Shown one piece after another: positions 7,782 to 34,848 of a stretch of DNA of 51,922 bases (its first letter is position 1; every line of letters starts with the position of its first letter). Source of the stretch: an uncultured Actinomycetota bacterium (GTDB lineage: Bacteria > Actinomycetota > Humimicrobiia > Humimicrobiales > Humimicrobiaceae); NCBI GenBank assembly GCA_964481885.1, contig CAYZUS010000010.1, forward strand, positions 20,426 through 72,347. Direction: 5' to 3'. Under the pieces are notes generated by a model. It was not told the DNA's origin. It did not search any database and saw only the letters and a list, made by a program, of their open reading frames with translations. The translations under genes and the position numbers were made by a program.

Positions 7782-7789
7782 GCCGATAA
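7782..7789 (+). promoter_or_regulatory. Sigma-28-type -10 box GCCGATAA upstream of the chemoreceptor operon
   Basis: 8/8 match to the -10 consensus, 83 nt upstream of the ATG at 7872. No convincing TAAA -35 at the expected spacing. Confidence 0.4.
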
Positions 7790-9809: not shown

Positions 9810-9873
9810 AATTTTTAGCTAGACTAAAGATTCCTGTAATAATTTTATTTAATTATTGAATTGGAGTATTTAT

Positions 9874-11967
9874 ATGATTGAGACAATGGAAGAAATAAAA
9901 ACTGAAAAGCAGGTGAAAAACGTCGCTAAGAAGGAAAGGGAGCTGGTCATATTTAAACTCGGAGACGAAGAATTCGGTGTAAGTATTGAATACGTCAAAG
10001 AGATTGTGAAACTGCCGGAAATTACCCTGATTCCTAACAGCATAGATTACATAGCAGGTATATGTAATCTAAGAGGCAGCGTATTGCCTGTAATTGATAC
10101 AAGGATAAGGTTTAACCTCTCAAAAAAAGAAACAACCGCACAGACAAGGCTGCTGGTTGTCGATTTGGGTGGGGAAACAACGGGCCTGATTGTTGATGCC
10201 GTATCACAGGTATTAAGCATCAGTGAGGATATCGTGGACCCGGCTCCGAGAGCGGCGGCGGGCATTGATAAAGATTTCCTTGATGGTGTCGTAAAGCTTA
10301 ATGACGGGAAAAGGCTCGTTTTGCTTCTAAATCTTACAGAAGTATTTTCGGCCCAGACTGAAAAAGCCAAAGTAAAAGGAAAAACAAGCTATGGGATGAA
10401 AAACGAGACAGAAGAGTCCAATCTGGCAAAGCAGGCCATGGACGAAGAGCAGCTTGTATCATTTCTTTTATCTGATGAGGAATATGCTTTTGATATTGAC
10501 AGTGTAAGGGAAATATTAAGGGTCATAGAAATAACGGAAGTTCCTAATGTTCCAAATTATGTACTCGGCCTTTTAAACATAAGGGACCAGATACTGCCAA
10601 TACTTGACTTAAGGACAATGCTTTCAATCAAGCATCTCGGTAAAGAATTATATGATGTTCTTGATGAAGTAAAAACTGTTCATAATGAATGGGTATCTTT
10701 GCTTGAACAATGTGTCAATGACGGCACTGGCTTTTCCGGCCAGAAAGATCCTCACTTTTGCAGGCTCGGAATGTGGATAGAAAGCTTTAAGAGCAATAAC
10801 AATAACTTAACAGCAATGGTGGCCAAGCTTGTCGAACCGCATAATGCGCTCCATAGTTATTCAGACGTGGTGACAGCCGAAGCGGCAAAATCAAAAGAGG
10901 GCGCACTCAAGATGATAAATGACAAAGTTATCCCGCTGAAAAACAACATACTGGATACATTTACAAAGATTGTTGAGAGTTTTTATTCTACAATCAAAGA
11001 CGAACAGAGGATACTTGTTATAGAATCAGCCGGTACGACCATAGGACTTGTTGTTGACCATGTAAATGAAGTAGTAAGGATACCAAAAAATATTATTGAT
11101 GAGACCCCTTCAATAATTGCTTCTTCAGGCAAGGAGATAAGCGGCGTTGCAAAGATGAACGGCGGCAAAAGAATAATCATGATAATGGATGAAAAAACAC
11201 TTTTTAAAGGTGATAAACAAATGTTAAACGAGATGGCCAAAGGCAGTTCAGGATCGGATAAGAATGTTTCAGAAGCAAAAAAAGATCTGGACGAGGATCA
11301 GTTCGTGACATTTAAAATTGGAAATGAGGAGTATGGCGTACAGATAATGAAGGTTCAGGAAATAAACCGCCTTTCAGAAATCACCTCTATTCCAAAAGCT
11401 CCATATTTTATTGATGGAGTTACCAATTTAAGAGGCAATGTCATCCCTATCATTGATATAAGAAAAAGATTTGCCATGGATATCAAAACAGACGATTACC
11501 GAACAAGAATTATTGTAGTCGATATCGCAGGAAAAAAGACGGGCCTTAAAGTCGATATGGTAAACGAAGTACTGCGCCTTTACAGAAGTGATATTGAAGA
11601 AGCACCGGGCATCATTTCAACTAATGTTGATTCTGATTTCATTGAAGGAATAGGGAAAATCGATAATGGTAAGAGGATGATAATACTTTTAAATGTTGAA
11701 AAGATCCTTACCAATAAGGAAATCGATGCTTTAAAGTCAATGGACAAGAGTGATTCATCAGAGAAAAATGTAAAACCTCAGGCAAAAAAAGAAGAGCCGG
11801 TGGAAGAAGTAAAACAAAAAAGCCAGGCATTAGAAATTTCTGAGGAGAAATCTGAAGAACCGGAAGCAATAGCAGAACCTGTAAAAGCTGTAAGCGCAAA
11901 AAACGGTGCAAAGAAAAAAGCTGCAGATGACGATGACAAGGATACGGGTTTTACAATGTCTGAATAG
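9874..11967 (+). CDS. Multi-domain CheW scaffold (three CheW domains, a CZB-like insertion in the second, K/E-rich tail)
   Basis: Three 'xFxLGxEEYGVxIxxVxEI...NLRGxVxPxIDxR' units. I prefer the ATG at 9874 (GGAG 8 nt upstream) over the TTG at 9856 in the ORF track. Confidence 0.85.
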   Translation: MIETMEEIKTEKQVKNVAKKERELVIFKLGDEEFGVSIEYVKEIVKLPEITLIPNSIDYIAGICNLRGSVLPVIDTRIRFNLSKKETTAQTRLLVVDLGGETTGLIVDAVSQVLSISEDIVDPAPRAAAGIDKDFLDGVVKLNDGKRLVLLLNLTEVFSAQTEKAKVKGKTSYGMKNETEESNLAKQAMDEEQLVSFLLSDEEYAFDIDSVREILRVIEITEVPNVPNYVLGLLNIRDQILPILDLRTMLSIKHLGKELYDVLDEVKTVHNEWVSLLEQCVNDGTGFSGQKDPHFCRLGMWIESFKSNNNNLTAMVAKLVEPHNALHSYSDVVTAEAAKSKEGALKMINDKVIPLKNNILDTFTKIVESFYSTIKDEQRILVIESAGTTIGLVVDHVNEVVRIPKNIIDETPSIIASSGKEISGVAKMNGGKRIIMIMDEKTLFKGDKQMLNEMAKGSSGSDKNVSEAKKDLDEDQFVTFKIGNEEYGVQIMKVQEINRLSEITSIPKAPYFIDGVTNLRGNVIPIIDIRKRFAMDIKTDDYRTRIIVVDIAGKKTGLKVDMVNEVLRLYRSDIEEAPGIISTNVDSDFIEGIGKIDNGKRMIILLNVEKILTNKEIDALKSMDKSDSSEKNVKPQAKKEEPVEEVKQKSQALEISEEKSEEPEAIAEPVKAVSAKNGAKKKAADDDDKDTGFTMSE

Positions 11968-13207: not shown

Positions 13208-14293
13208 ATGGACATAGAAAAATTAAGAGAAAAACTACTATCTTCAGAAAAATCAGATGTTTCTGAAGCGCTGGATATAATATATGAAGATGAAATTATC
13301 GAGCTTGCAGACGTGATGGTCGATGTTTTAAAGAGGGAGACCTCCCGTGCCATGAGGGAAAAAATACTTGTTACGATCGGCAAATTATTTAACAAGCTTG
13401 GTTCTTTTAACAAACTTGGCTTTGAAACAATAAAACAGATGTTTTTTGCTGAGGATGCTTTTATAAGAAACGGAATAATCTCACTTATCAAAAGAAGTGA
13501 CGGGACGGATTACTCACACTTAAGAGAATTATCAAGATGCAACGACAAGGACATCAGAAAATTTGTAATCGATGCTTTAAGTAATGACAACTGTGCCCAA
13601 TCCATTGAAATAATACATGAGCTTTTAACAGATGAAGATATCAATATCAGGATAACTTCAGTTGATTACCTGGGGGATTTCAAGACCGAGCAGTATTGCG
13701 ATGAAATTACAGATATCTTTTTAAATACAGATAACCCGATGCTGAAAATATCCTGCCTTGAATCTGTTGCAAAAATCGGGAAAAAACCCAAAAAATTTGA
13801 CCTGGTTTATAAGGAGCTTACTGAAAAACCGAATAACCTGATGATATTTTCGTTTTTAAAAATTCTGGGAGCTTTCGGAGGAGAGGAATCTTTTTCCTTC
13901 CTTGAAAATATATTACTGGATGAGAAAACCTTTTTTTTGAAGAATGTAATTGATGCAGTTGAGTCAATTCTGGTAAATAGTGATTTAAAAATGCCGGACA
14001 ATTTGAAAAATGCCTTTATAAAAAGAGTTGATACTGCATCAAGCAATGACAAATATGAGATTATGAAACTTCTGGCTAAAGATGATGGTGACGAGATGTC
14101 GCAGAATGCCAGAGAAAACCTTAAAAGTGAAGATGAAATGATACTGCTTTCGGCAATTGAGATACTTGCAGATACCGGCAGTCTTTGCGACATTGACAAA
14201 CTTGAAGATGTGGCCTCTGAGTCTGAGTCTGATGATATTCTTGAAGCTATAGGCGACGCCGTGATGAAAATTAAAGCAAGATTAAAACAATAA
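13208..14293 (+). CDS. HEAT/PBS-lyase-like repeat protein embedded in the che operon
   Basis: Repeated ~30-aa helical units ('DKDIRKFVIDALSN', 'DEDINIRITSVDYLGD', 'NPMLKISCLESVAKIG'). AAGGA RBS. Confidence 0.6.
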   Translation: MDIEKLREKLLSSEKSDVSEALDIIYEDEIIELADVMVDVLKRETSRAMREKILVTIGKLFNKLGSFNKLGFETIKQMFFAEDAFIRNGIISLIKRSDGTDYSHLRELSRCNDKDIRKFVIDALSNDNCAQSIEIIHELLTDEDINIRITSVDYLGDFKTEQYCDEITDIFLNTDNPMLKISCLESVAKIGKKPKKFDLVYKELTEKPNNLMIFSFLKILGAFGGEESFSFLENILLDEKTFFLKNVIDAVESILVNSDLKMPDNLKNAFIKRVDTASSNDKYEIMKLLAKDDGDEMSQNARENLKSEDEMILLSAIEILADTGSLCDIDKLEDVASESESDDILEAIGDAVMKIKARLKQ

Positions 14294-18374: not shown

Positions 18375-18526
18375 ATGACTAAAGATTTAAAAAACAGTTT
18401 TTTCAAATCTGTTTTTATTCCGTCCGACTGTGGATCTACTCAGGATCAGATCAGGTTTTAATCCCGGCTTTTTAAGGCAGTGGCGGAATATTTAATTACC
18501 GGGGTTTTATACAAGAAGCCGATTTT

Positions 18527-18534
18527 CCGATAAC
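18527..18534 (+). promoter_or_regulatory. Weak sigma-28-like -10 box TCCGATAA upstream of the kinase-J-domain gene
   Basis: 7/8 match, 117 nt upstream of the ATG at 18651. No clear -35. Confidence 0.25.
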
Positions 18535-18650
18535 ATGATACCCACAGACTTTGTCCTTTTAATTATTTCCAAACTATTGTATTTATACTAAGATATAATT
18601 CAAAAATATATTTCAAAATTGTTTTCAAAACCCGATTGCATTTTGTTTTT

Positions 18651-20315
18651 ATGAAAGATAAATTTTTTTCTTATTATGAGATCCTTTCCGAAGGAGAAGT
18701 AGGCAACACTTACACCGTTTATAAAGCAAGGAACATAAATAACGGCCAGCCTGTAACTGTCAAATTCCTTAGGGGGGATCTTTCACTGGATAAAAATATC
18801 CTTGAGAATTATTTTATCAAGGAAGTTGAAAATTTCAGGCTGCTTGTACATCCTAATATATTAAAAATACTGGATTACGGTAAGGCAGAATCATCCTACT
18901 ACCTGGTCTATGAATTCTTTGAATCACGGACCCTTCTGGATATTTTTAAAGCCAAAGAGGTGCTGCCTACAGCTACAATTGAATACATGGCAAAACAGAT
19001 AATACGTGGGTTAAATTATGCAGCCGGCAATAATGTACTTCACAGGGACCTAAAACCTTTAAATATACTTGTAGGCGAAGGAGGAAGAGTAAAGATATCA
19101 GATTTCAGTATTCTGGAGAGTTCTATTTCAAGGGCGCTTTCAAATACTGTCACTGCAAGAAGAACGCTTTTTTTAGGTTCACCCTGCTACATTTCTCCAG
19201 AGCAGGCCCTGGGTTTAAAAATTGACTTCAAGTCAGACATTTATTCTTTTGGAATTCTTCTTTTTGAGATGCTGACCGGAAAAACTCCCTTTAACTCCGA
19301 TACTTCCTGGGGGCTGCTATACAAACATATTAAAGAAATACCTCCGGACCTTAAAAAAATAAAAGACAACATTCCGGAGTATTTAAATTATATTTTTAAA
19401 AGATCTCTTTCAAAATCACAGGCCAAACGCTTTAACAGCTATGAGGAGATCCTGAATATACTCAGCATTAAAAATTACGACCCGGATGAGTTTTTGGAAA
19501 AAGAAAAAAGCTCTATTGTGGAACGAATAAAGCTTTTTGATGATTCTGGCTTATTCGAAATTGAGGAATTAAAGTCAATAATAAACGAGAGAAAAAAGTT
19601 TTTCGTTGACCTGGTAGAGGAAGTTGAAGACTTAAAAACTGACCTGCTATTTATAAAAAGGGAGTATGACCTCAGGATCGAAAAACTCTACCTGGATATG
19701 GAGTACGCAGATTTAAAAATACTGGAGTTCAAAAAGATTATCAGGATGAAAAACAAGGGATTTTCCGAGGTTAGCGCCAAGAGATCAGTTCGGGAAAAAA
19801 TAAAGGAACGTTTTGATGAACTTGAAGGCAAATATAAAGTAATAGATGATGAGACCAAGATCGAGAAAGATTTAAAAAATGTTTACCAGATAGAACGCAG
19901 CGGTATTAAAAAAATCTGGAAGCAGCTTGCTCTGAAATATCATCCGGATTTCGCAAAAAACAATGAAGAAAGAGAAATTCTTGAAAAGATAATGAAAAGG
20001 ATCAACACTGCTTATGATAAAAATGACATAAAAATATTAAGTACTTTTAAAAAGATTGATTTTTTTGTTGACGGTGAAAATGATACTGTCCAAAGCTTAA
20101 ACAGGAAACTTCTTTCCATAAACAAATCATTAAAGCTTATTATTGAGGAAGAAGCCCAATTAAAGAAATCTGAATGGTTTTCATGGAGGGAAGATATGAA
20201 CAGGGCAACACTGGTGGGAGAGGACCTCTTTGTAGAGCTCGAGAAAAATTTAAGCCAGGACATACTTTACAAGGAGAGATACCTGGAAAAATTAAAATCA
20301 GGGCTTAAAAATTAA
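18651..20315 (+). CDS. Hanks-type Ser/Thr protein kinase with coiled-coil middle region and C-terminal J-domain
   Basis: Kinase motifs are 'GEVGNTYTVYKA', 'VTVKF', 'HRDLKPLNILV', 'ISDFS' and 'SPCYISPEQ'. The J-domain reads 'IKKIWKQLALKYHPDFAKNNEEREILEKIMKRINTAYD' (HPD). I prefer the ATG at 18651 over the TTG at 18636. Confidence 0.8.
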   Translation: MKDKFFSYYEILSEGEVGNTYTVYKARNINNGQPVTVKFLRGDLSLDKNILENYFIKEVENFRLLVHPNILKILDYGKAESSYYLVYEFFESRTLLDIFKAKEVLPTATIEYMAKQIIRGLNYAAGNNVLHRDLKPLNILVGEGGRVKISDFSILESSISRALSNTVTARRTLFLGSPCYISPEQALGLKIDFKSDIYSFGILLFEMLTGKTPFNSDTSWGLLYKHIKEIPPDLKKIKDNIPEYLNYIFKRSLSKSQAKRFNSYEEILNILSIKNYDPDEFLEKEKSSIVERIKLFDDSGLFEIEELKSIINERKKFFVDLVEEVEDLKTDLLFIKREYDLRIEKLYLDMEYADLKILEFKKIIRMKNKGFSEVSAKRSVREKIKERFDELEGKYKVIDDETKIEKDLKNVYQIERSGIKKIWKQLALKYHPDFAKNNEEREILEKIMKRINTAYDKNDIKILSTFKKIDFFVDGENDTVQSLNRKLLSINKSLKLIIEEEAQLKKSEWFSWREDMNRATLVGEDLFVELEKNLSQDILYKERYLEKLKSGLKN

Positions 20316-21373: not shown

Positions 21374-21381
21374 TTATCGGC
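21374..21381 (-). promoter_or_regulatory. Sigma-28-type -10 box GCCGATAA (minus strand) upstream of the HD-GYP gene
   Basis: 8/8 match on the minus strand, 163 nt upstream of the ATG at 21211. No clear -35. Confidence 0.35.
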
Positions 21382-21542: not shown

Positions 21543-22058
21543 CTAATAGTAAATATCAATACCCAGCGATTGAGGTTTTTTTTCATTTACTTTGTCATAA
21601 AAAGAAAACATGTAAGAGCGTATTGGAGCAGATTTTTTATTTGAACTAATATTCTGTGTCTTTAATAATTGCTCAAGCAATTCGTAATTGTCATTGCCCA
21701 GAGATTTTAAATCCATCAAGGTTTGGTCAAGGTTGCCTGAACTTAGATTTTCCTTAAGTAACCTGAGGCTGCAGACAAGGTTTTTGAGGTCGTCAAGATA
21801 CTCATCCAGAATTCCGCCGGGCCCTTCGATTGACTGGAACCCATATATTTTATTTTCCAGAGCATCAATAAGAATATCCAGATTCCTGTATGTCTCGAAT
21901 AATTGTTCATTGTAATCATTCAAAGGAGGAGCCGACAATCGTTTTTTTGAGTAGTTATTTTGCCCATCCGGAAATCGGTATGTCGAATGAGTATTTTGAA
22001 CAGTTTTTGTGCCATAGTTGTTATTTATAAAACTATTATTACCCAAAGCTGCTTCCAT
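21543..22058 (-). CDS. Hypothetical protein (N/Q-rich N-terminus, helical C-terminal half)
   Basis: 171-aa ORF with a GGGAG-like RBS. I recognise no family. Confidence 0.4.
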   Translation of the reverse strand: MEAALGNNSFINNNYGTKTVQNTHSTYRFPDGQNNYSKKRLSAPPLNDYNEQLFETYRNLDILIDALENKIYGFQSIEGPGGILDEYLDDLKNLVCSLRLLKENLSSGNLDQTLMDLKSLGNDNYELLEQLLKTQNISSNKKSAPIRSYMFSFYDKVNEKKPQSLGIDIYY

Positions 22059-22622: not shown

Positions 22623-23030
22623 ATGATAGCCAGTGAAATCCTTAATGCTCAGTACGGGATTCAGAAGAAATCCAAGACAGGCCATAACGAGGCCCAGATT
22701 GAATATGCCCTTAAGGGCATAAAATATCATATAGGTTATCTCGCAGAAAGCATCTCATACTCAAAGCCAGAGCTCTTCTATCAATATTTAAAATGGGCAA
22801 AAACTCTTTTTGCTTCCATAGAAGTTCCTGATAGAGATCTGGCAGTAACTCTTTCAGTGACTGCAAATACTTTAGACAGGGTAATGCCGGAAAATATTAA
22901 AAACATACCAGAGATTTATTTAAAAGGAGGCCTGGAGTTTTTAAATGATACTTCAATTGAATTGCCTTACTTGATAGATGAAGAAAAAACCTCGGTAGCT
23001 CATGCAGGAAATACCTGGGTTATCTCATAG
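22623..23030 (+). CDS. Helical N-terminal domain fragment, probably the upstream part of a frame-split B12-binding protein
   Basis: 135-aa ORF ending 27 nt before the B12-module ORF. The downstream frame is already open from 23000 and encodes conserved-looking sequence. Confidence 0.5.
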   Translation: MIASEILNAQYGIQKKSKTGHNEAQIEYALKGIKYHIGYLAESISYSKPELFYQYLKWAKTLFASIEVPDRDLAVTLSVTANTLDRVMPENIKNIPEIYLKGGLEFLNDTSIELPYLIDEEKTSVAHAGNTWVIS

Positions 23031-24899: not shown

Positions 24900-25763
24900 A
24901 TGGAAATAATAACTTCAAGGGTTTTTAATCTGCTTTATGTTTATCTTGACAGTGCCTGGCTGATAGTATTGCTTATAATATTTTTAATAAAAAAGAGATA
25001 TCTGGCAATAATTGCAGGATTAATCGGCGGACTGATTTATTTCGCCGTTGATTATGGCATATTTTATCTTGCGCTTGGGACAAGAGTTGTTGATGGCGCC
25101 CCACCCCTAATCCTGCTGCTATGGCTCAGCGTGAGTTACGGTTTTACAAATTTTGCCTGGATATGGCTGTGGCTTGACAGAGACAGCCATGCATTTGAAT
25201 GGTCCCTCCTTATAATCTTCGGGTGGCTCACTACTGCTTTATTGAGCAATAACTTTGGCAGCGCTTTTCAAATTATCTCAATTTCCCGGGGAACTTCCAG
25301 CTATCACGGCGTTATGGCTTTAATATTGCTGGTTGGCTACGGAATTCTGATAATAAAAAACATAAAAACTGTAAATAATGTGCACATATACAGTAACCGG
25401 GATGCTGACAATACAGGTGAAAGTATTTATCTTAAAAGCCTGCAAAGCAAAATTACTGCCGGGAGCAATACCAAAAACAATATTTCTCAAAAAAACAATC
25501 CTGAAACAATTATTCCGCCTGACAGCATGGTTTCCGGCAGTTATTCTCAGCATGAGAAAATAAATATTTTGTGGATACTGGCCATAGGAATACTTGTGCA
25601 GTTTTCATGGGAATCGGTTCTGCTTGTCACAGGGATAAGGCCGGTAGGGATTTTACCGCTGATAGTTAATTCTATTCTTGAGACCAACCTTGGGCTCCCA
25701 TATCTGTTCCTGATTCATCGTGCAGTTACAAAAAGATTCAGTGAGAATCTGTCAAAAGTTTAA
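24900..25763 (+). CDS. Hypothetical 7-TM membrane protein with a ~65-aa low-complexity loop between TM5 and TM6
   Basis: Seven hydrophobic segments by eye. I recognise no family, and there is no Lys in the last helix. Confidence 0.55.
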   Translation: MEIITSRVFNLLYVYLDSAWLIVLLIIFLIKKRYLAIIAGLIGGLIYFAVDYGIFYLALGTRVVDGAPPLILLLWLSVSYGFTNFAWIWLWLDRDSHAFEWSLLIIFGWLTTALLSNNFGSAFQIISISRGTSSYHGVMALILLVGYGILIIKNIKTVNNVHIYSNRDADNTGESIYLKSLQSKITAGSNTKNNISQKNNPETIIPPDSMVSGSYSQHEKINILWILAIGILVQFSWESVLLVTGIRPVGILPLIVNSILETNLGLPYLFLIHRAVTKRFSENLSKV

Positions 25764-31698: not shown

Positions 31699-34600
31699 AT
31701 GGCTACAGCTATAGAAAACCTGAAAAGTATCAAACAGAATGCTATACAGGACCTTATTGAAAAAGGTCTGCTGTCTGCCACTCGAATTTATGTGGGTATG
31801 TCCACTTGCGAGATTGCAGCCGGAAGCAAAGATGTATGGGATACTTTTCAGAAAGAAATCGCAGACAATTCAATAAAAGATGTACAGTTAAAACAGAAAG
31901 GTTGTGCGGGCAGATGCAATCTTGAACCGACTGTTGAAGTTTTACAGGCGGGAAAGGTACCTTTCAAGTACATAAACGTAAACAGTGAAAAAGCAAAAGA
32001 GATTATAAAAAAACACCTTCTCGAAAACAGCGCCCAGTCTGCAGAAAGATCAGTAAATTTAAAAACGGATCCTTTTGTACTGACTGACAGGTCAAAGTTT
32101 GTCTTCGGAGATGTTGATTTTTTCAGCAAACAAAAAAGAATAACACTTAGAAACTGTGGGATCATTGATCCTGAAAGCATAGATGATTATTTATCAGTAA
32201 GAGGCTATGAATCCCTGGCCAAAGTTCTTACAGATTATACTCCGGGACAGGTCGTGGAAGAGATAACAAAGTCCGGCTTAAGAGGCAGAGGCGGCGGCGG
32301 TTTCCCAACAGGACTTAAATGGAAGCTTGTCGCAAAAGAAGAAGAAAAGGAAAAATATGTAATCTGTAACGCAGATGAGGGTGACCCGGGTGCATTTATG
32401 GACAGAAGTGCCCTTGAAGGAGATCCGCATATCGTCATTGAGGGAATGGTGATTGCCGGCTATGCAGTAGGCGCAAAAAAAGGTTTTGTCTATATCAGGG
32501 CCGAATATCCTCTTGCAATTGAAAGGTTAAGAATAGCAATAAAAGATGCTGAAAAGAATGGTTTCCTGGGTAAAAATATTCTTGGAACAGATTTTAGCTT
32601 TGATATAGAGCTTGTACTTGGTGCAGGCGCATTTGTTTGCGGCGAAGAAACCGCGCTGATACACTCGATAGAGGGTGGCAGAGGCGTCCCGACTACCAAA
32701 CCTCCTTATCCTGCGGTAAGCGGGCTTTGGAACAAGCCGACACTTATAAATAATGTGGAAACATTTGCAAATATTGGCGTTATAATCCTTGATGGTTATG
32801 AGAATTTTGCTTTAATCGGCACAGAAGAAAGCAAAGGTACCAAGGTTTTTGCGCTTTCAGGCAAGGTCAATAACACAGGTCTTATCGAAGTTCCGATGGG
32901 AATTACTTTAAGGGAGATTGTTTATGATATTGGCGGCGGAATAAAAGATAATAAGAAATTCAAGGCATTGCTGACAGGCGGACCTTCCGGAGGCTGTATT
33001 CCTGAGGAATTTCTTGACAGTAAAGTAGATTATGATTCATTAAAGGCACTTGGCTCGATAATGGGCTCCGGTGGAATGATAGTGCTTGATGAAGATGATT
33101 GCATGATAGACATTGCAAGGTATTTTCTTGAGTTTACTCAAAACGAATCCTGCGGCAAATGTACGCCCTGCCGTGAAGGGACCAAAAGAATGCTTGAGAT
33201 ACTTACCAGGATAACTTCCGGAAAAGGGGAAGAAATAGATATTGAAAATCTGATGCGACTTGCCAATCTTATAAAAAAGACTGCACTTTGCGGACTCGGA
33301 CAATCTGCGCCTAACCCGGTACTGACAACAATGAAGTATTTTAAAAATGAATACGACGAACATGTGAAGTTGAAAAAATGTACTGCTGCAGTTTGCAAGG
33401 GAATAATCTCATCACCGTGCCAGCATTCATGCTTTATCGGCGGCAGCGGGATACCTTCCTATATAGGCCTTATAGCTCAGGAAAAATTTGATAAAGCAGT
33501 AAAGATACTTTACAGCGAAAATCCTCTGCCAATTATATGCGGAAGGGTATGCCACCATCCGTGTGAAAGCAAATGCAGAAGAGGAAAGATAGACAAACCT
33601 ATAGCAATCAGGGAAATAAAAAGATTTCTTACCGATTATGCCATGGAAAATAAGATGGATGGCATGCCGGTTCCCGGTACAGTAAAAGAAGGAAAAGTGG
33701 CCATCATCGGTTCCGGCCCCTCCGGACTTACATGCGCCTACTATCTTGCGCTTGAAGGTTATAAAGTTACTATTTTTGAAAAACTACCTGTCGCAGGGGG
33801 GATGCTTGCTGTTGCAATACCTGAATACAGGCTTCCAAAAGCATTACTGCAATACGAGATAAACAATATCCTAAGCCTCGGAGTTGAGCTTAAGTTAAAT
33901 ACTGAGATTGGAAAAGACATAAGTTTTTCGGATCTCAAAAAAGAGTTTAAAGCGATATTTATTGCAGCAGGCGCACACAAAGGACTGAAACTTTCGATAC
34001 CGGGTGAAGATTTGCCCGGTGTTATGGATGCAGTTGACCTGCTCAGAGATATAAACCTTGGGAAAAAAGTAAATATTGGAGAGAGAGCAGCTGTCATTGG
34101 CGGTGGAAATGCTGCAATCGATGCAGTAAGGACGCTTTCGAGACTTGGCGTAAAAGCCAGCCTTCTATACAGGAGGACAAAAAATGAAATGCCTGCATGG
34201 CAGGAAGAGGTAGATGAAGCCATAAATGAAGGTATCGACATACAATACCTTGTCGCACCGGTCAGGGCGATTGCAGAAAATGGCAGAATCAAAAAACTTG
34301 AGTGTATCAGGATGGAGCTTGGTGACATTGATAAAAGTGGCAGGAGAAGGCCCGTTCCAAAGCAGGGCTCTGAATTTATAATTGAGATAGATACGCTTGT
34401 GCCGGCCATAAGCCAGGAACCTGATATTGAATTTATTTCAAATGAAAAAAATGGAATAAAGCTTTCGAAATGGAAAACCATAGAGGTTAATGAAGAAACT
34501 TACTATACAGGAGCGGACGGTATTTTTGCAGGCGGAGATGTTGTTCTTGGTCCCAAAACAGTTACCGAAGCCATGTCACACGGAAAAGTAGCTGCCCTGA

Positions 34601-34848
34601 TGATAGACAAATACATAAAGGGTGAAGAACTTACAAGGAAATACAGCGTTACAAAGCCTGCTGCTGATGTTGCCATTATTGAAATGACTGAAGAGGAAAT
34701 CGAGAGTCTTGAAAGATTTGACGTACCAATGCTTGAAATGGCACAAAGAAAAGGCAATTTTATTGAAACAGAACTAGGGTTTTCCATGCACCAGGCTGTA
34801 TGTGAAGCAAAGCACTGCTTAAGGTGCGATAAGGAGGAAAAAGAATAA
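31699..34848 (+). CDS. Fusion protein: thioredoxin-like [2Fe-2S] domain + NuoF/HydB-like flavin/NADH module + GltD/NfnB-like FAD/NADPH oxidoreductase module
   Basis: The NuoF part has 'GLRGRGGGGFPTGLKW', 'CNADEGDPGAF' and 'ESCGKCTPCREG'. The GltD part has 'NPLPIICGRVCHHPCESKCRR', 'VAIIGSGPSGLTCAYYLA' and 'AAVIGGGNAAIDAVRT'. Confidence 0.9.
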   Translation: MATAIENLKSIKQNAIQDLIEKGLLSATRIYVGMSTCEIAAGSKDVWDTFQKEIADNSIKDVQLKQKGCAGRCNLEPTVEVLQAGKVPFKYINVNSEKAKEIIKKHLLENSAQSAERSVNLKTDPFVLTDRSKFVFGDVDFFSKQKRITLRNCGIIDPESIDDYLSVRGYESLAKVLTDYTPGQVVEEITKSGLRGRGGGGFPTGLKWKLVAKEEEKEKYVICNADEGDPGAFMDRSALEGDPHIVIEGMVIAGYAVGAKKGFVYIRAEYPLAIERLRIAIKDAEKNGFLGKNILGTDFSFDIELVLGAGAFVCGEETALIHSIEGGRGVPTTKPPYPAVSGLWNKPTLINNVETFANIGVIILDGYENFALIGTEESKGTKVFALSGKVNNTGLIEVPMGITLREIVYDIGGGIKDNKKFKALLTGGPSGGCIPEEFLDSKVDYDSLKALGSIMGSGGMIVLDEDDCMIDIARYFLEFTQNESCGKCTPCREGTKRMLEILTRITSGKGEEIDIENLMRLANLIKKTALCGLGQSAPNPVLTTMKYFKNEYDEHVKLKKCTAAVCKGIISSPCQHSCFIGGSGIPSYIGLIAQEKFDKAVKILYSENPLPIICGRVCHHPCESKCRRGKIDKPIAIREIKRFLTDYAMENKMDGMPVPGTVKEGKVAIIGSGPSGLTCAYYLALEGYKVTIFEKLPVAGGMLAVAIPEYRLPKALLQYEINNILSLGVELKLNTEIGKDISFSDLKKEFKAIFIAAGAHKGLKLSIPGEDLPGVMDAVDLLRDINLGKKVNIGERAAVIGGGNAAIDAVRTLSRLGVKASLLYRRTKNEMPAWQEEVDEAINEGIDIQYLVAPVRAIAENGRIKKLECIRMELGDIDKSGRRRPVPKQGSEFIIEIDTLVPAISQEPDIEFISNEKNGIKLSKWKTIEVNEETYYTGADGIFAGGDVVLGPKTVTEAMSHGKVAALMIDKYIKGEELTRKYSVTKPAADVAIIEMTEEEIESLERFDVPMLEMAQRKGNFIETELGFSMHQAVCEAKHCLRCDKEEKE

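What the first reader, a model, noticed from the sequence alone, without database searches (positions are those of the whole stretch)
18651..20315. Bacterial Hanks kinase fused to a C-terminal J-domain (GAK/auxilin-like architecture)
The N-terminal ~270 aa have the Hanks motifs: a Gly-rich loop, 'VTVKF' Lys, 'HRDLKPLN', 'DFS' in place of DFG, and 'SPE'. After ~130 aa of predicted coiled coil comes 'IKKIWKQLALKYHPDFAKNNEEREILEKIMKRINTAYD' (HPD at nt 19941-19949). This aligns well with helices II-III of DnaJ J-domains, including the HPD tripeptide that stimulates Hsp70 ATPase. Kinase plus J-domain is known from eukaryotic GAK. I am not aware of a characterised bacterial example. It suggests phosphorylation coupled to DnaK recruitment. 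The gene follows the che cluster and has a weak sigma-28-like box upstream.
Basis: partly seen in the sequence, partly recalled or inferred. Interest (0 to 1): 0.6.

Follow-up and report, generated by a model that had tools for sequence, protein, structure and literature searches.

The report
Ser/Thr kinase fused to J-domain module
A real 554-residue gene in an uncultured low-GC actinobacterium joins a PknB-type protein kinase to a conserved 260-residue helical module with a chaperone-recruiting J-domain core, a fusion I found in no other genome and whose function is only inferred.

Summary
Window 18651-20315 (+) is one open frame of 554 aa. It has a Hanks kinase domain (Pfam Pkinase, E 5e-41) and a J-domain match (PF00226, 28.7 bits against a cut-off of 27.8).

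The C-terminal half is more than a coiled coil followed by a J-domain. All 270 residues form one conserved all-helical module (AlphaFold2 pLDDT 89.6). Elsewhere this module is a stand-alone, unnamed protein of about 260 aa, found in Patescibacteria, high-GC actinobacteria and other groups. HPD is invariant in 50 aligned members. A profile of the family hits only J-domains in the PDB (best E 4.5e-8), but it covers only helices II-III. Canonical helix I is replaced by the end of a long helix.

I found no other kinase fused to this module among 150 module representatives, 38 module loci and the 120 best kinase homologues. No orthologue turned up in 40 related genomes. The gene sits at the end of a flagellar and chemotaxis island that same-genus genomes lack.

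The kinase keeps all catalytic residues but has a degenerate Gly-rich loop and DFS with an insertion. DnaK recruitment is inferred, not shown. Any likeness to GAK is in domain order only. Earlier notes of this scan report other prokaryotic J-kinase fusions on other DNA, with the J-domain at the N-terminus.

The parts
18651..20315 (+). Whole gene, 554 aa plus stop (P0001). An alternative TTG start lies at 18636.
   Evidence: The kinase alignment with PknB begins near residue 9-17, which favours the ATG at 18651.
18702..19451 (+). Hanks-type Ser/Thr kinase domain (aa 18-267). Present: K38, E58, HRDLKPLN 131-138, D151, SPE 182-184. The Gly-rich loop is EVGNTYTV, with only the middle Gly. DFG reads DFS and is followed by a ~5-residue insertion relative to the closest homologues.
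   Evidence: Pfam 5.4e-41. NCBIfam PknB_PASTA_kin, kinase part only, 3.6e-67 and below its cut-off. PDB PknB 2.8e-39, with alignment. Alignment with the closest kinases.
19545..19883 (+). Two long helices (aa 299-368 and 373-411), the N-terminal coiled-coil part of the module. They carry the family motifs EY..RI..LY and G.S...A.
   Evidence: AlphaFold2 model, pLDDT 89.6. Family alignment A1.
19899..20018 (+). J-domain core (aa 417-456): basic helix II (IKKIWKQLALKY), HPD at 19941-19949, and helix III. A short helix IV equivalent follows at aa 460-468.
20088..20309 (+). Three C-terminal helices of the module (aa 480-553), with the conserved SEW(F/Y).W motif. The second Trp is invariant.
18375..18650 (+). 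276-nt intergenic region after cheA. It holds an A/U-rich hairpin just after the cheA stop and the weak sigma-28-like -10 (tTCCGATAAc, 18526-18533). It has no Rfam match and no unusual fold.

Best explanation
The gene encodes a soluble, cytoplasmic multi-domain signalling protein. A PknB-type Ser/Thr kinase domain replaces whatever N-terminus (if any) the module has elsewhere. It is followed by a complete copy of an uncharacterised ~260-aa helical module whose centre is a J-domain core (basic helix II, invariant HPD, helix III).

Shown: both parts are real, intact and in one frame. The module is a conserved family in its own right. The genome has one DnaK.

Inferred: the long helices dimerise the protein, which would favour trans-autophosphorylation. 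The HPD core docks ATP-bound DnaK and triggers its ATPase, as in class C J-domain proteins. DnaK would then be brought to the kinase itself (chaperone-gated kinase activity) or to the kinase's bound substrates. Alternatively, DnaK or its clients are phosphorylated.

Because the gene lies at the end of a strain-specific flagellar, chemotaxis and c-di-GMP island, the likely targets are motility or signalling proteins.
For: One ORF with two significant domain matches. All catalytic kinase residues are present and there is a Thr-containing activation loop. The J-domain core is supported in four ways: by Pfam above its cut-off, by PDB sequence hits that are J-domains only, by HPD being invariant in 50 family members, and by the local structural fit of helix II-HPD-III to solved J-domains. 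That fit includes DnaJ bound to DnaK, 5nro_B at rmsd 1.7 A over 41 residues and 39% identity, and 2y4t at rmsd 0.9 A over 38. By my numbering of E. coli DnaJ, the helix II residues equivalent to R22, Y25 and K26 are K, W and K here, and W and K are invariant in the subset alignments A2 and A3. The module model is confident (pLDDT 89.6, pTM 0.76). The genome has one DnaK with DnaJ beside it. Base composition is the same in both halves and in the neighbours. The gene lies between cheA and an HD-GYP gene, in a region carrying FlhB, FlhA, CheR, CheX, CheY, an MCP and a GGDEF protein.
Against: Nothing has been measured for function. The Pfam J score is only 0.9 bits above the cut-off and covers 37 of 63 model positions. 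Helix I of the J fold is not detectable, and neither Foldseek nor VIA-align gave a significant whole-domain match. The Gly-rich loop keeps only one of three glycines. DFG is DFS with an insertion that the closest relatives lack, so the kinase may be weak or inactive. No orthologue is available to show that the fusion is kept by selection; there is only a 132-aa fragment, P0122. Module genes elsewhere have no conserved neighbour that would reveal a pathway.
Confidence: 0.55

Rival explanations
1. The protein is a J-protein whose kinase fold is a binding domain. The kinase domain would be catalytically impaired and serve as the client- or nucleotide-binding part of a class C J-domain protein that hands a specific target to DnaK.
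For: The Gly-rich loop is reduced to EVGNTYTV. DFG reads DFS with a ~5-residue insertion, whereas the closest homologues keep DFG. Earlier notes of this scan report a J-domain fused to a dead kinase fold in another genome (not checked here).
Against: K38, E58, D133, K135, N138 and D151 are all intact. The middle glycine of the loop, the most conserved one, is present. Close relatives also lack some loop glycines.
Confidence: 0.2
2. The J core is a structural relic. The module would be a coiled-coil scaffold or localisation device that no longer talks to DnaK, and the protein would simply be a kinase with a dimerising tail.
For: Helix I is missing, the Pfam score is marginal, and no whole-domain structural match was found.
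Against: HPD is invariant across 50 diverged members (about 25-35% identity). The basic face of helix II is conserved, which is hard to explain without Hsp70 contact.
Confidence: 0.15
3. The gene is an anti-phage defence kinase. It would be a PD-T4-6- or Mokosh-like defence kinase carried on a variable island.
For: PADLOC kinase models match the kinase domain strongly (PD-T4-6, 3e-64). The gene is in a strain-specific region.
Against: The PADLOC hits cover only the generic kinase fold. The module has no PADLOC hit, only weak J-region PHROGs hits, and no match in the phage or plasmid collections. The island is a flagellar and chemotaxis cluster, not a defence island.
Confidence: 0.05
4. The fusion is an assembly or gene-calling artefact that joins two separate genes in a metagenome-assembled genome.
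For: The genome is a MAG of 89 contigs. The only near-orthologous sequence (P0122) diverges upstream of aa ~462, as if frameshifted.
Against: The frame is continuous for 554 codons. The junction lies inside a predicted helix. GC and GC3 are alike on both sides. Module genes elsewhere never have a kinase gene next to them that could have been merged.
Confidence: 0.03

Closest known systems
PknB/Stk1/StkP-type bacterial Hanks kinases (e.g. M. tuberculosis PknB, PDB 3f69/1mru)
   Same: They are the best sequence matches in the PDB (E 2.8e-39). The same catalytic residues and an activation loop with Thr are present.
   Different: There is no transmembrane segment and there are no PASTA domains. 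The Gly-rich loop and DFG are atypical. The C-terminus is the J module. The closest homologues (45-41% identity: P0004, P0005, G016) end in other tails; those of P0004 and G016 contain hydrophobic stretches that look like membrane segments by eye (not tested with a predictor).
Class C J-domain proteins (DnaJ PF00226 core; e.g. DjlA, HscB, phage Rki)
   Same: HPD loop between a basic helix II and helix III. The J element is combined with an unrelated targeting region, as in class C proteins (PMC10410713 for the class definition).
   Different: The J core sits in the middle of a larger helical module, not at a terminus. Helix I is not recognisable. There is no Gly/Phe-rich region, zinc finger or DnaJ C-terminal domain.
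Unnamed ~260-aa 'J domain-containing / hypothetical' protein family (e.g. P0123-P0128; loci L044-L062)
   Same: It aligns over residues 17-266 of the 270-aa C-terminal half at 25-37% identity and shares the invariant positions A, HPD, N, A and W.
   Different: Those proteins stand alone or carry other N-termini: weak, below-cut-off matches to HTH and FtsK-gamma, DUF6804 above its cut-off, or a second J-domain. None has a kinase.
Eukaryotic GAK (cyclin G-associated kinase) / auxilin
   Same: Order of parts: kinase at the N-terminus and an Hsp70-recruiting J element towards the C-terminus.
   Different: GAK has a NAK-family kinase, PTEN-like and C2 domains, clathrin-binding motifs and a terminal four-helix J-domain (established knowledge). 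None of the extra domains is present here and the kinase is PknB-like. The similarity is convergent at most.
Other prokaryotic J-domain::kinase fusions noted earlier in this scan (CPR/DPANN three-gene module; Chthonomonadales receptor kinase), and the human DNAJB1-PRKACA chimera
   Same: A J-domain and a Hanks kinase in one polypeptide (these are AI notes that I did not check).
   Different: In all of those the J-domain is N-terminal and canonical. Here it is C-terminal, embedded in a different module, and there is no vWA or pyruvate-kinase-like partner gene nearby.

Membership tests
Hanks-type protein kinase (PF00069) | Profile match above the curated cut-off over the whole domain | tested here: met
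   141.2 bits against 31.7, HMM positions 10-257 of 263.
Hanks-type protein kinase (PF00069) | Catalytic residues: VAIK Lys, alpha-C Glu, HRD Asp, catalytic-loop Lys and Asn, DFG Asp | tested here: met
   K38, E58, D133, K135, N138 and D151 align with PknB K40, E59 and the equivalent residues.
Hanks-type protein kinase (PF00069) | Gly-rich loop GxGxxG and an intact DFG | tested here: not met
   The loop is E-V-G-N-T-Y, with only the middle Gly. DFG is DFS followed by an insertion that the closest homologues lack.
Hanks-type protein kinase (PF00069) | Phosphotransfer activity | not testable with these tools
   Needs an in vitro kinase assay.
J-domain (PF00226) | Profile match above the curated cut-off | tested here: met
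   28.7 bits against 27.8, which is marginal, over HMM positions 15-51 of 63. The family profile against PDB J-domains gives E 4.5e-8.
J-domain (PF00226) | HPD tripeptide in the loop between helices II and III | tested here: met
   H431-P432-D433. It is invariant in 50 homologues and lies in the loop between two helices in both models.
J-domain (PF00226) | Complete four-helix J fold including helix I | tested here: inconclusive
   Helices II, III and a short IV are modelled. The helix I position is occupied by the end of a 39-residue helix. J-domains head the Foldseek list but with E >= 0.78; the local rmsd is 0.9-2.2 A over 38-41 residues.
J-domain (PF00226) | HPD-dependent stimulation of Hsp70/DnaK ATPase | not testable with these tools
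   Needs biochemistry. DnaK is present in the genome.
GAK/auxilin | PTEN-like and C2 domains plus a clathrin-binding region between the kinase and the J-domain; NAK-family kinase | tested here: not met
   Pfam reports only the kinase and DnaJ matches. The best kinase matches are bacterial PknB, Stk1 and StkP.
Unnamed ~260-aa J-module family | End-to-end alignment with the conserved motifs (EY..RIG.LY, G.S...A, LWKKL..KFHPDL, MK.IN.AY, SEWY.WK) | tested here: met
   86 representatives at E<=1e-10, most of them aligned over query residues ~17-266. Alignment A1 has invariant A92, H147, P148, D149, N168, A170 and W225.

The most novel reading that the evidence does not exclude
The ~260-aa helical J module is an undescribed, widespread DnaK-docking regulatory device. 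Fused to a kinase, it makes a chaperone-gated Ser/Thr kinase: free DnaK, engaged through HPD, would hold or remodel the coiled-coil dimer. Proteotoxic stress that titrates DnaK away would then switch phosphorylation of flagellar, chemotaxis or c-di-GMP targets. That would be a direct wire from proteostasis to motility signalling.
Probability: 0.2. Interest if true: 0.7.

Novelty: new variant of a known kind. Interest (0 to 1): 0.5.

Why it matters
Bacterial Hanks kinases are known for swapping sensor tails, and J-domain proteins for swapping targeting domains. A natural protein that joins the two would be a ready-made test of whether bacteria couple Hsp70 chaperone cycles to Ser/Thr phosphorylation. 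In eukaryotes that coupling is known from GAK and, in disease, from the DNAJB1-PRKACA fusion. The work also brings to light a conserved family of J-module proteins with no Pfam, NCBIfam, PADLOC or literature description that I could find. The family is present in Patescibacteria and in Streptomyces-like genomes, and this fusion gives a first functional hint for it. The limit is that this is a single gene in a single MAG, with no functional data.

Tried and rejected
- **Orthologue search.** A word-indexed search with the C-terminal half found nothing; only the exhaustive HMMER search found the family. A metagenome scan with P0001 gave one unrelated kinase.
- I could not fetch the contigs of P0122 or of the stand-alone members from that source, and used genome contigs instead.
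- **Structure searches.** Whole-module searches (Foldseek against the PDB, VIA-align wide) returned only generic helical bundles. The J sub-model gave J-domains at the top of the list but without significance.
- **Other libraries.** The ESM Atlas search with the full protein returned only kinases. PADLOC, PHROGs and NCBIfam gave no specific family for the module. The phage and plasmid collections gave no match.
- **Gene neighbourhood.** No conserved neighbour of module genes was found.
- **Upstream region.** No Rfam family and no unusual RNA fold.
- **Literature.** Searches found no bacterial kinase-J description. The supplements of the J-domain-protein census paper are not held.
- **Rejected idea.** Contig C10 is not mis-binned: genes downstream in the window are 81-94% identical to same-genus genomes.
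- **Not done.** I could not run a true InterPro-style census of PF00069 plus PF00226 architectures.

Full report
**Observation.** Window 18651-20315 (+) is a single open frame of 554 codons. An alternative TTG start lies five codons upstream. Pfam finds Pkinase at aa 18-267 (E 5.4e-41) and DnaJ PF00226 at aa 417-456. The DnaJ match scores 28.7 bits against a gathering score of 27.8 and covers HMM positions 15-51 of 63. NCBIfam gives the same picture: PknB-type kinases for the N-terminus, and DnaJ, HscB and ActJ J regions for 412-463. The upstream genes are a chemotaxis cluster (four-CheW protein, CheB, HEAT-repeat protein, CheR, CheY, CheA). Downstream, on the other strand, lies an HD-GYP-type HD domain protein.

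**Is the J match real?** Three further results say yes.
- A phmmer search of the C-terminal 270 aa against all PDB sequences returned 26 hits at E<=1, every one a J-domain.
- An exhaustive HMMER search of 1.84 billion cluster representatives found 338 relatives at E<=1e-3, 86 of them at E<=1e-10.
- In an alignment of 50 of these, HPD is invariant. A profile of that alignment hits 37 PDB sequences at E<=1e-3, all J-domains, the best at 4.5e-8.

The matched stretch always corresponds to J-domain residues ~12-55, that is helix II, the HPD loop and helix III. By my numbering of E. coli DnaJ, which rests on HPD = 33-35, residues R22, Y25 and K26 of helix II correspond to K, W and K here. The W and K are invariant in the subset alignments A2 and A3.

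**What the C-terminal half really is.** The relatives do not align only at the J core. Most are proteins of 255-280 aa that align with query residues ~17-266. They share motifs before and after the J core: EY..RIG.LY, G.S...A, SEWY.WK and an invariant Trp. The whole 270-aa tail is therefore one conserved module.
- AlphaFold2 with this alignment gives a confident all-helical model (mean pLDDT 89.6, pTM 0.76). It has two long helices (15-84, 89-127), then helix II (132-145), HPD (147-149), helix III (154-172), a short helix IV (176-184), and three more helices (196-269).
- Neither Foldseek nor VIA-align found a specific fold for the whole model.
- A separate model of residues 112-195 (pLDDT 72.8) put J-domains at the top of the Foldseek list, but none was significant (E >= 0.78). 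The local fits are good: 5nro_B, DnaJ bound to DnaK, at rmsd 1.7 A over 41 residues, and 2y4t at 0.9 A over 38.
- The place of canonical helix I is taken by the end of the long helix. I therefore call this a J-domain core rather than a complete J-domain.

**The module family.** It has no specific entry in Pfam, NCBIfam, PADLOC or PHROGs. Sources call its members 'hypothetical' or 'J domain-containing'.
- Named genomes that carry it are Patescibacteria (Levyibacteriota, Microgenomates, Paceibacterota) and MAGs labelled uncultured Gammaproteobacteria.
- In a sample of 300 genomes of the window's phylum, full-length matches occur in genomes of 7-10 Mb and 71-72% GC (Streptomyces-like by size and GC) and in a second high-GC family.
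- Some members carry other N-termini: weak, below-cut-off matches to HTH and FtsK-gamma, DUF6804 above its cut-off, or a second J-domain.
- No neighbour is conserved. Four of 19 loci have a response regulator beside the gene, three of them with a histidine kinase. Others have FKBP, MsrB or MerR/TipAS genes, largely through synteny among related genomes.
- The phage and plasmid collections gave no match.

**Is the fusion unique?** I found no kinase in 150 module representatives, in 19 module ORFs from the phylum sample, or in 19 named-genome loci. None of the 120 best kinase homologues contains the module.
- The full protein has no orthologue in 40 related genomes. Only the kinase part matches, at most 43% identity.
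- One 132-aa metagenomic protein (P0122) is 79% identical to the last 114 aa as BLASTP aligned them. Nearly all of the mismatches fall before aa ~462, upstream of which it diverges, as a frameshifted or mis-called orthologue would.
- The closest kinases (P0004 45%, P0005 43%, G016 41%) end in unrelated tails. Those of P0004 and G016 contain hydrophobic stretches that look like membrane segments by eye; I did not test them with a predictor. If they are membrane anchors, the J module has replaced such a tail here.
- Earlier notes of this scan list other prokaryotic J-domain::kinase fusions, with the J-domain N-terminal, in CPR/DPANN three-gene modules and in a Chthonomonadales receptor kinase. 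I did not check them. If they are right, 'kinase plus J' has arisen several times, and this is a further, architecturally different instance.

**The kinase.** Aligned with M. tuberculosis PknB, the residues K38, E58, D133, K135, N138, D151 and the SPE motif are in place, and the activation loop has threonines where PknB is phosphorylated. Two ATP-site motifs are atypical. The Gly-rich loop reads E-V-G-N-T-Y, with only the central Gly. DFG reads DFS and is followed by a ~5-residue insertion that the closest homologues lack. The kinase is probably active, but this is not assured.

**Genome context.** DnaK homologues name the organism as an uncultured 'Actinobacteria bacterium' of the anaerobic-digester type (85% identity to ADurb.Bin346). 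The genome is a 2.39-Mb MAG of 89 contigs.
- It has one DnaK with DnaJ beside it, a second J protein, two other Hanks kinases, one PP2C and two FHA proteins.
- The contig is not mis-binned: a gene at 31699-34848 is 94% and 81% identical to same-genus genomes.
- Window 1 to ~25,700 has no DNA match in four same-genus genomes, while 25,785 onwards is syntenic. The unmatched part carries FlhB, FlhA, CheR, HDOD, CheX, CheY, an MCP, the che cluster, this gene, the HD-GYP gene, two orphans, a B12-binding protein and a GGDEF protein.
- CheA and FlhA were found in none of the five genus genomes. They are present in two other genera of the family, with FlhA at 62-67% identity. The gene therefore belongs to a patchily retained flagellar, chemotaxis and c-di-GMP island.
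- GC and GC3 are uniform across the gene and its neighbours.
- CCGATAA occurs 17 times in the window against 4.4 expected. Clear atGCCGATAAat boxes precede the MCP gene (7783) and the HD-GYP gene (21374, minus strand). The box before this gene is weaker.

**Mechanism.** Shown: an intact fusion, a conserved module, an invariant HPD, and DnaK in the genome. Inferred: the coiled-coil helices dimerise the kinase, and the HPD core engages DnaK-ATP. DnaK then either regulates the kinase or is delivered to the kinase's substrates, which are plausibly motility or signalling proteins of the island. That DnaK, DnaJ and GrpE are needed for flagellum synthesis in E. coli is established knowledge, recalled from memory and not checked here, and it makes such a link reasonable. 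Rival readings are a pseudokinase used as a client-binding domain, a relic J core, a defence kinase, and an assembly artefact; each is weighed in its own section.

**Comparison and verdict.** The protein is a member of the Hanks kinase superfamily with atypical ATP-site motifs, and a member of the unnamed J-module family. It works like a class C J-domain protein only by inference. It is not a GAK/auxilin homologue.
- Novelty: a new variant of known kinds.
- Interest: moderate. It is a single gene in one MAG, but a clean natural experiment and a first handle on an undescribed J-module family.

**Note on sources.** The tallies include genomes flagged unpublished (G032, G076, G113, G172, G196). 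No specific claim here rests on them.

Noticed in passing
window 1-25700: A flagellar, chemotaxis and c-di-GMP island (FlhB, FlhA, CheR, HDOD, CheX, CheY, MCP, che cluster, HD-GYP, GGDEF) has no DNA match in four same-genus genomes, while the window is syntenic with them from ~25,785 on. In at least three of those assemblies (G003, G005, G001) the matching contig begins only 1.5-3.4 kb before this boundary. FlhA is 62-67% identical in two other genera of the family.
   Followed up: partly
window 7783-7789 (+), 21374-21380 (-), 18527-18533 (+): CCGATAA is enriched in the window: 17 copies against 4.4 expected, and 0 of 100 shuffles reach 17. Two intergenic copies share atGCCGATAAat before the MCP gene and the HD-GYP gene, like a sigma-28 -10 element.
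   Followed up: partly
window 9856-11967 (+): A 703-aa protein with four CheW domains and a chemoreceptor zinc-binding (CZB) domain.
   Followed up: no
window 13208-14293 (+): A HEAT-repeat protein is encoded between cheB and cheR.
   Followed up: no
window 21543-22058 (-), 22623-23030 (+), 24900-25763 (+): Three ORFs in the island have no Pfam family.
   Followed up: no
G000 contig 43, 13692-15830: There is a second CheA, 40% identical to the one in the window. It resembles the CheA of the two flagellated genera of the family.
   Followed up: no
L057, L058, L060, L054: In 4 of 19 named-genome loci, a stand-alone J-module gene sits next to a response regulator. In three of them there is also a histidine kinase; the one scanned (L060) has CHASE, PAS and histidine-kinase domains.
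   Followed up: partly
P0122 (JGI metagenome protein, 132 aa): This is the only near-orthologue. It is 79% identical over the last 114 aa as aligned, nearly identical from aa ~462 on, and unrelated upstream, which suggests a frameshift or a mis-called start in that contig.
   Followed up: partly
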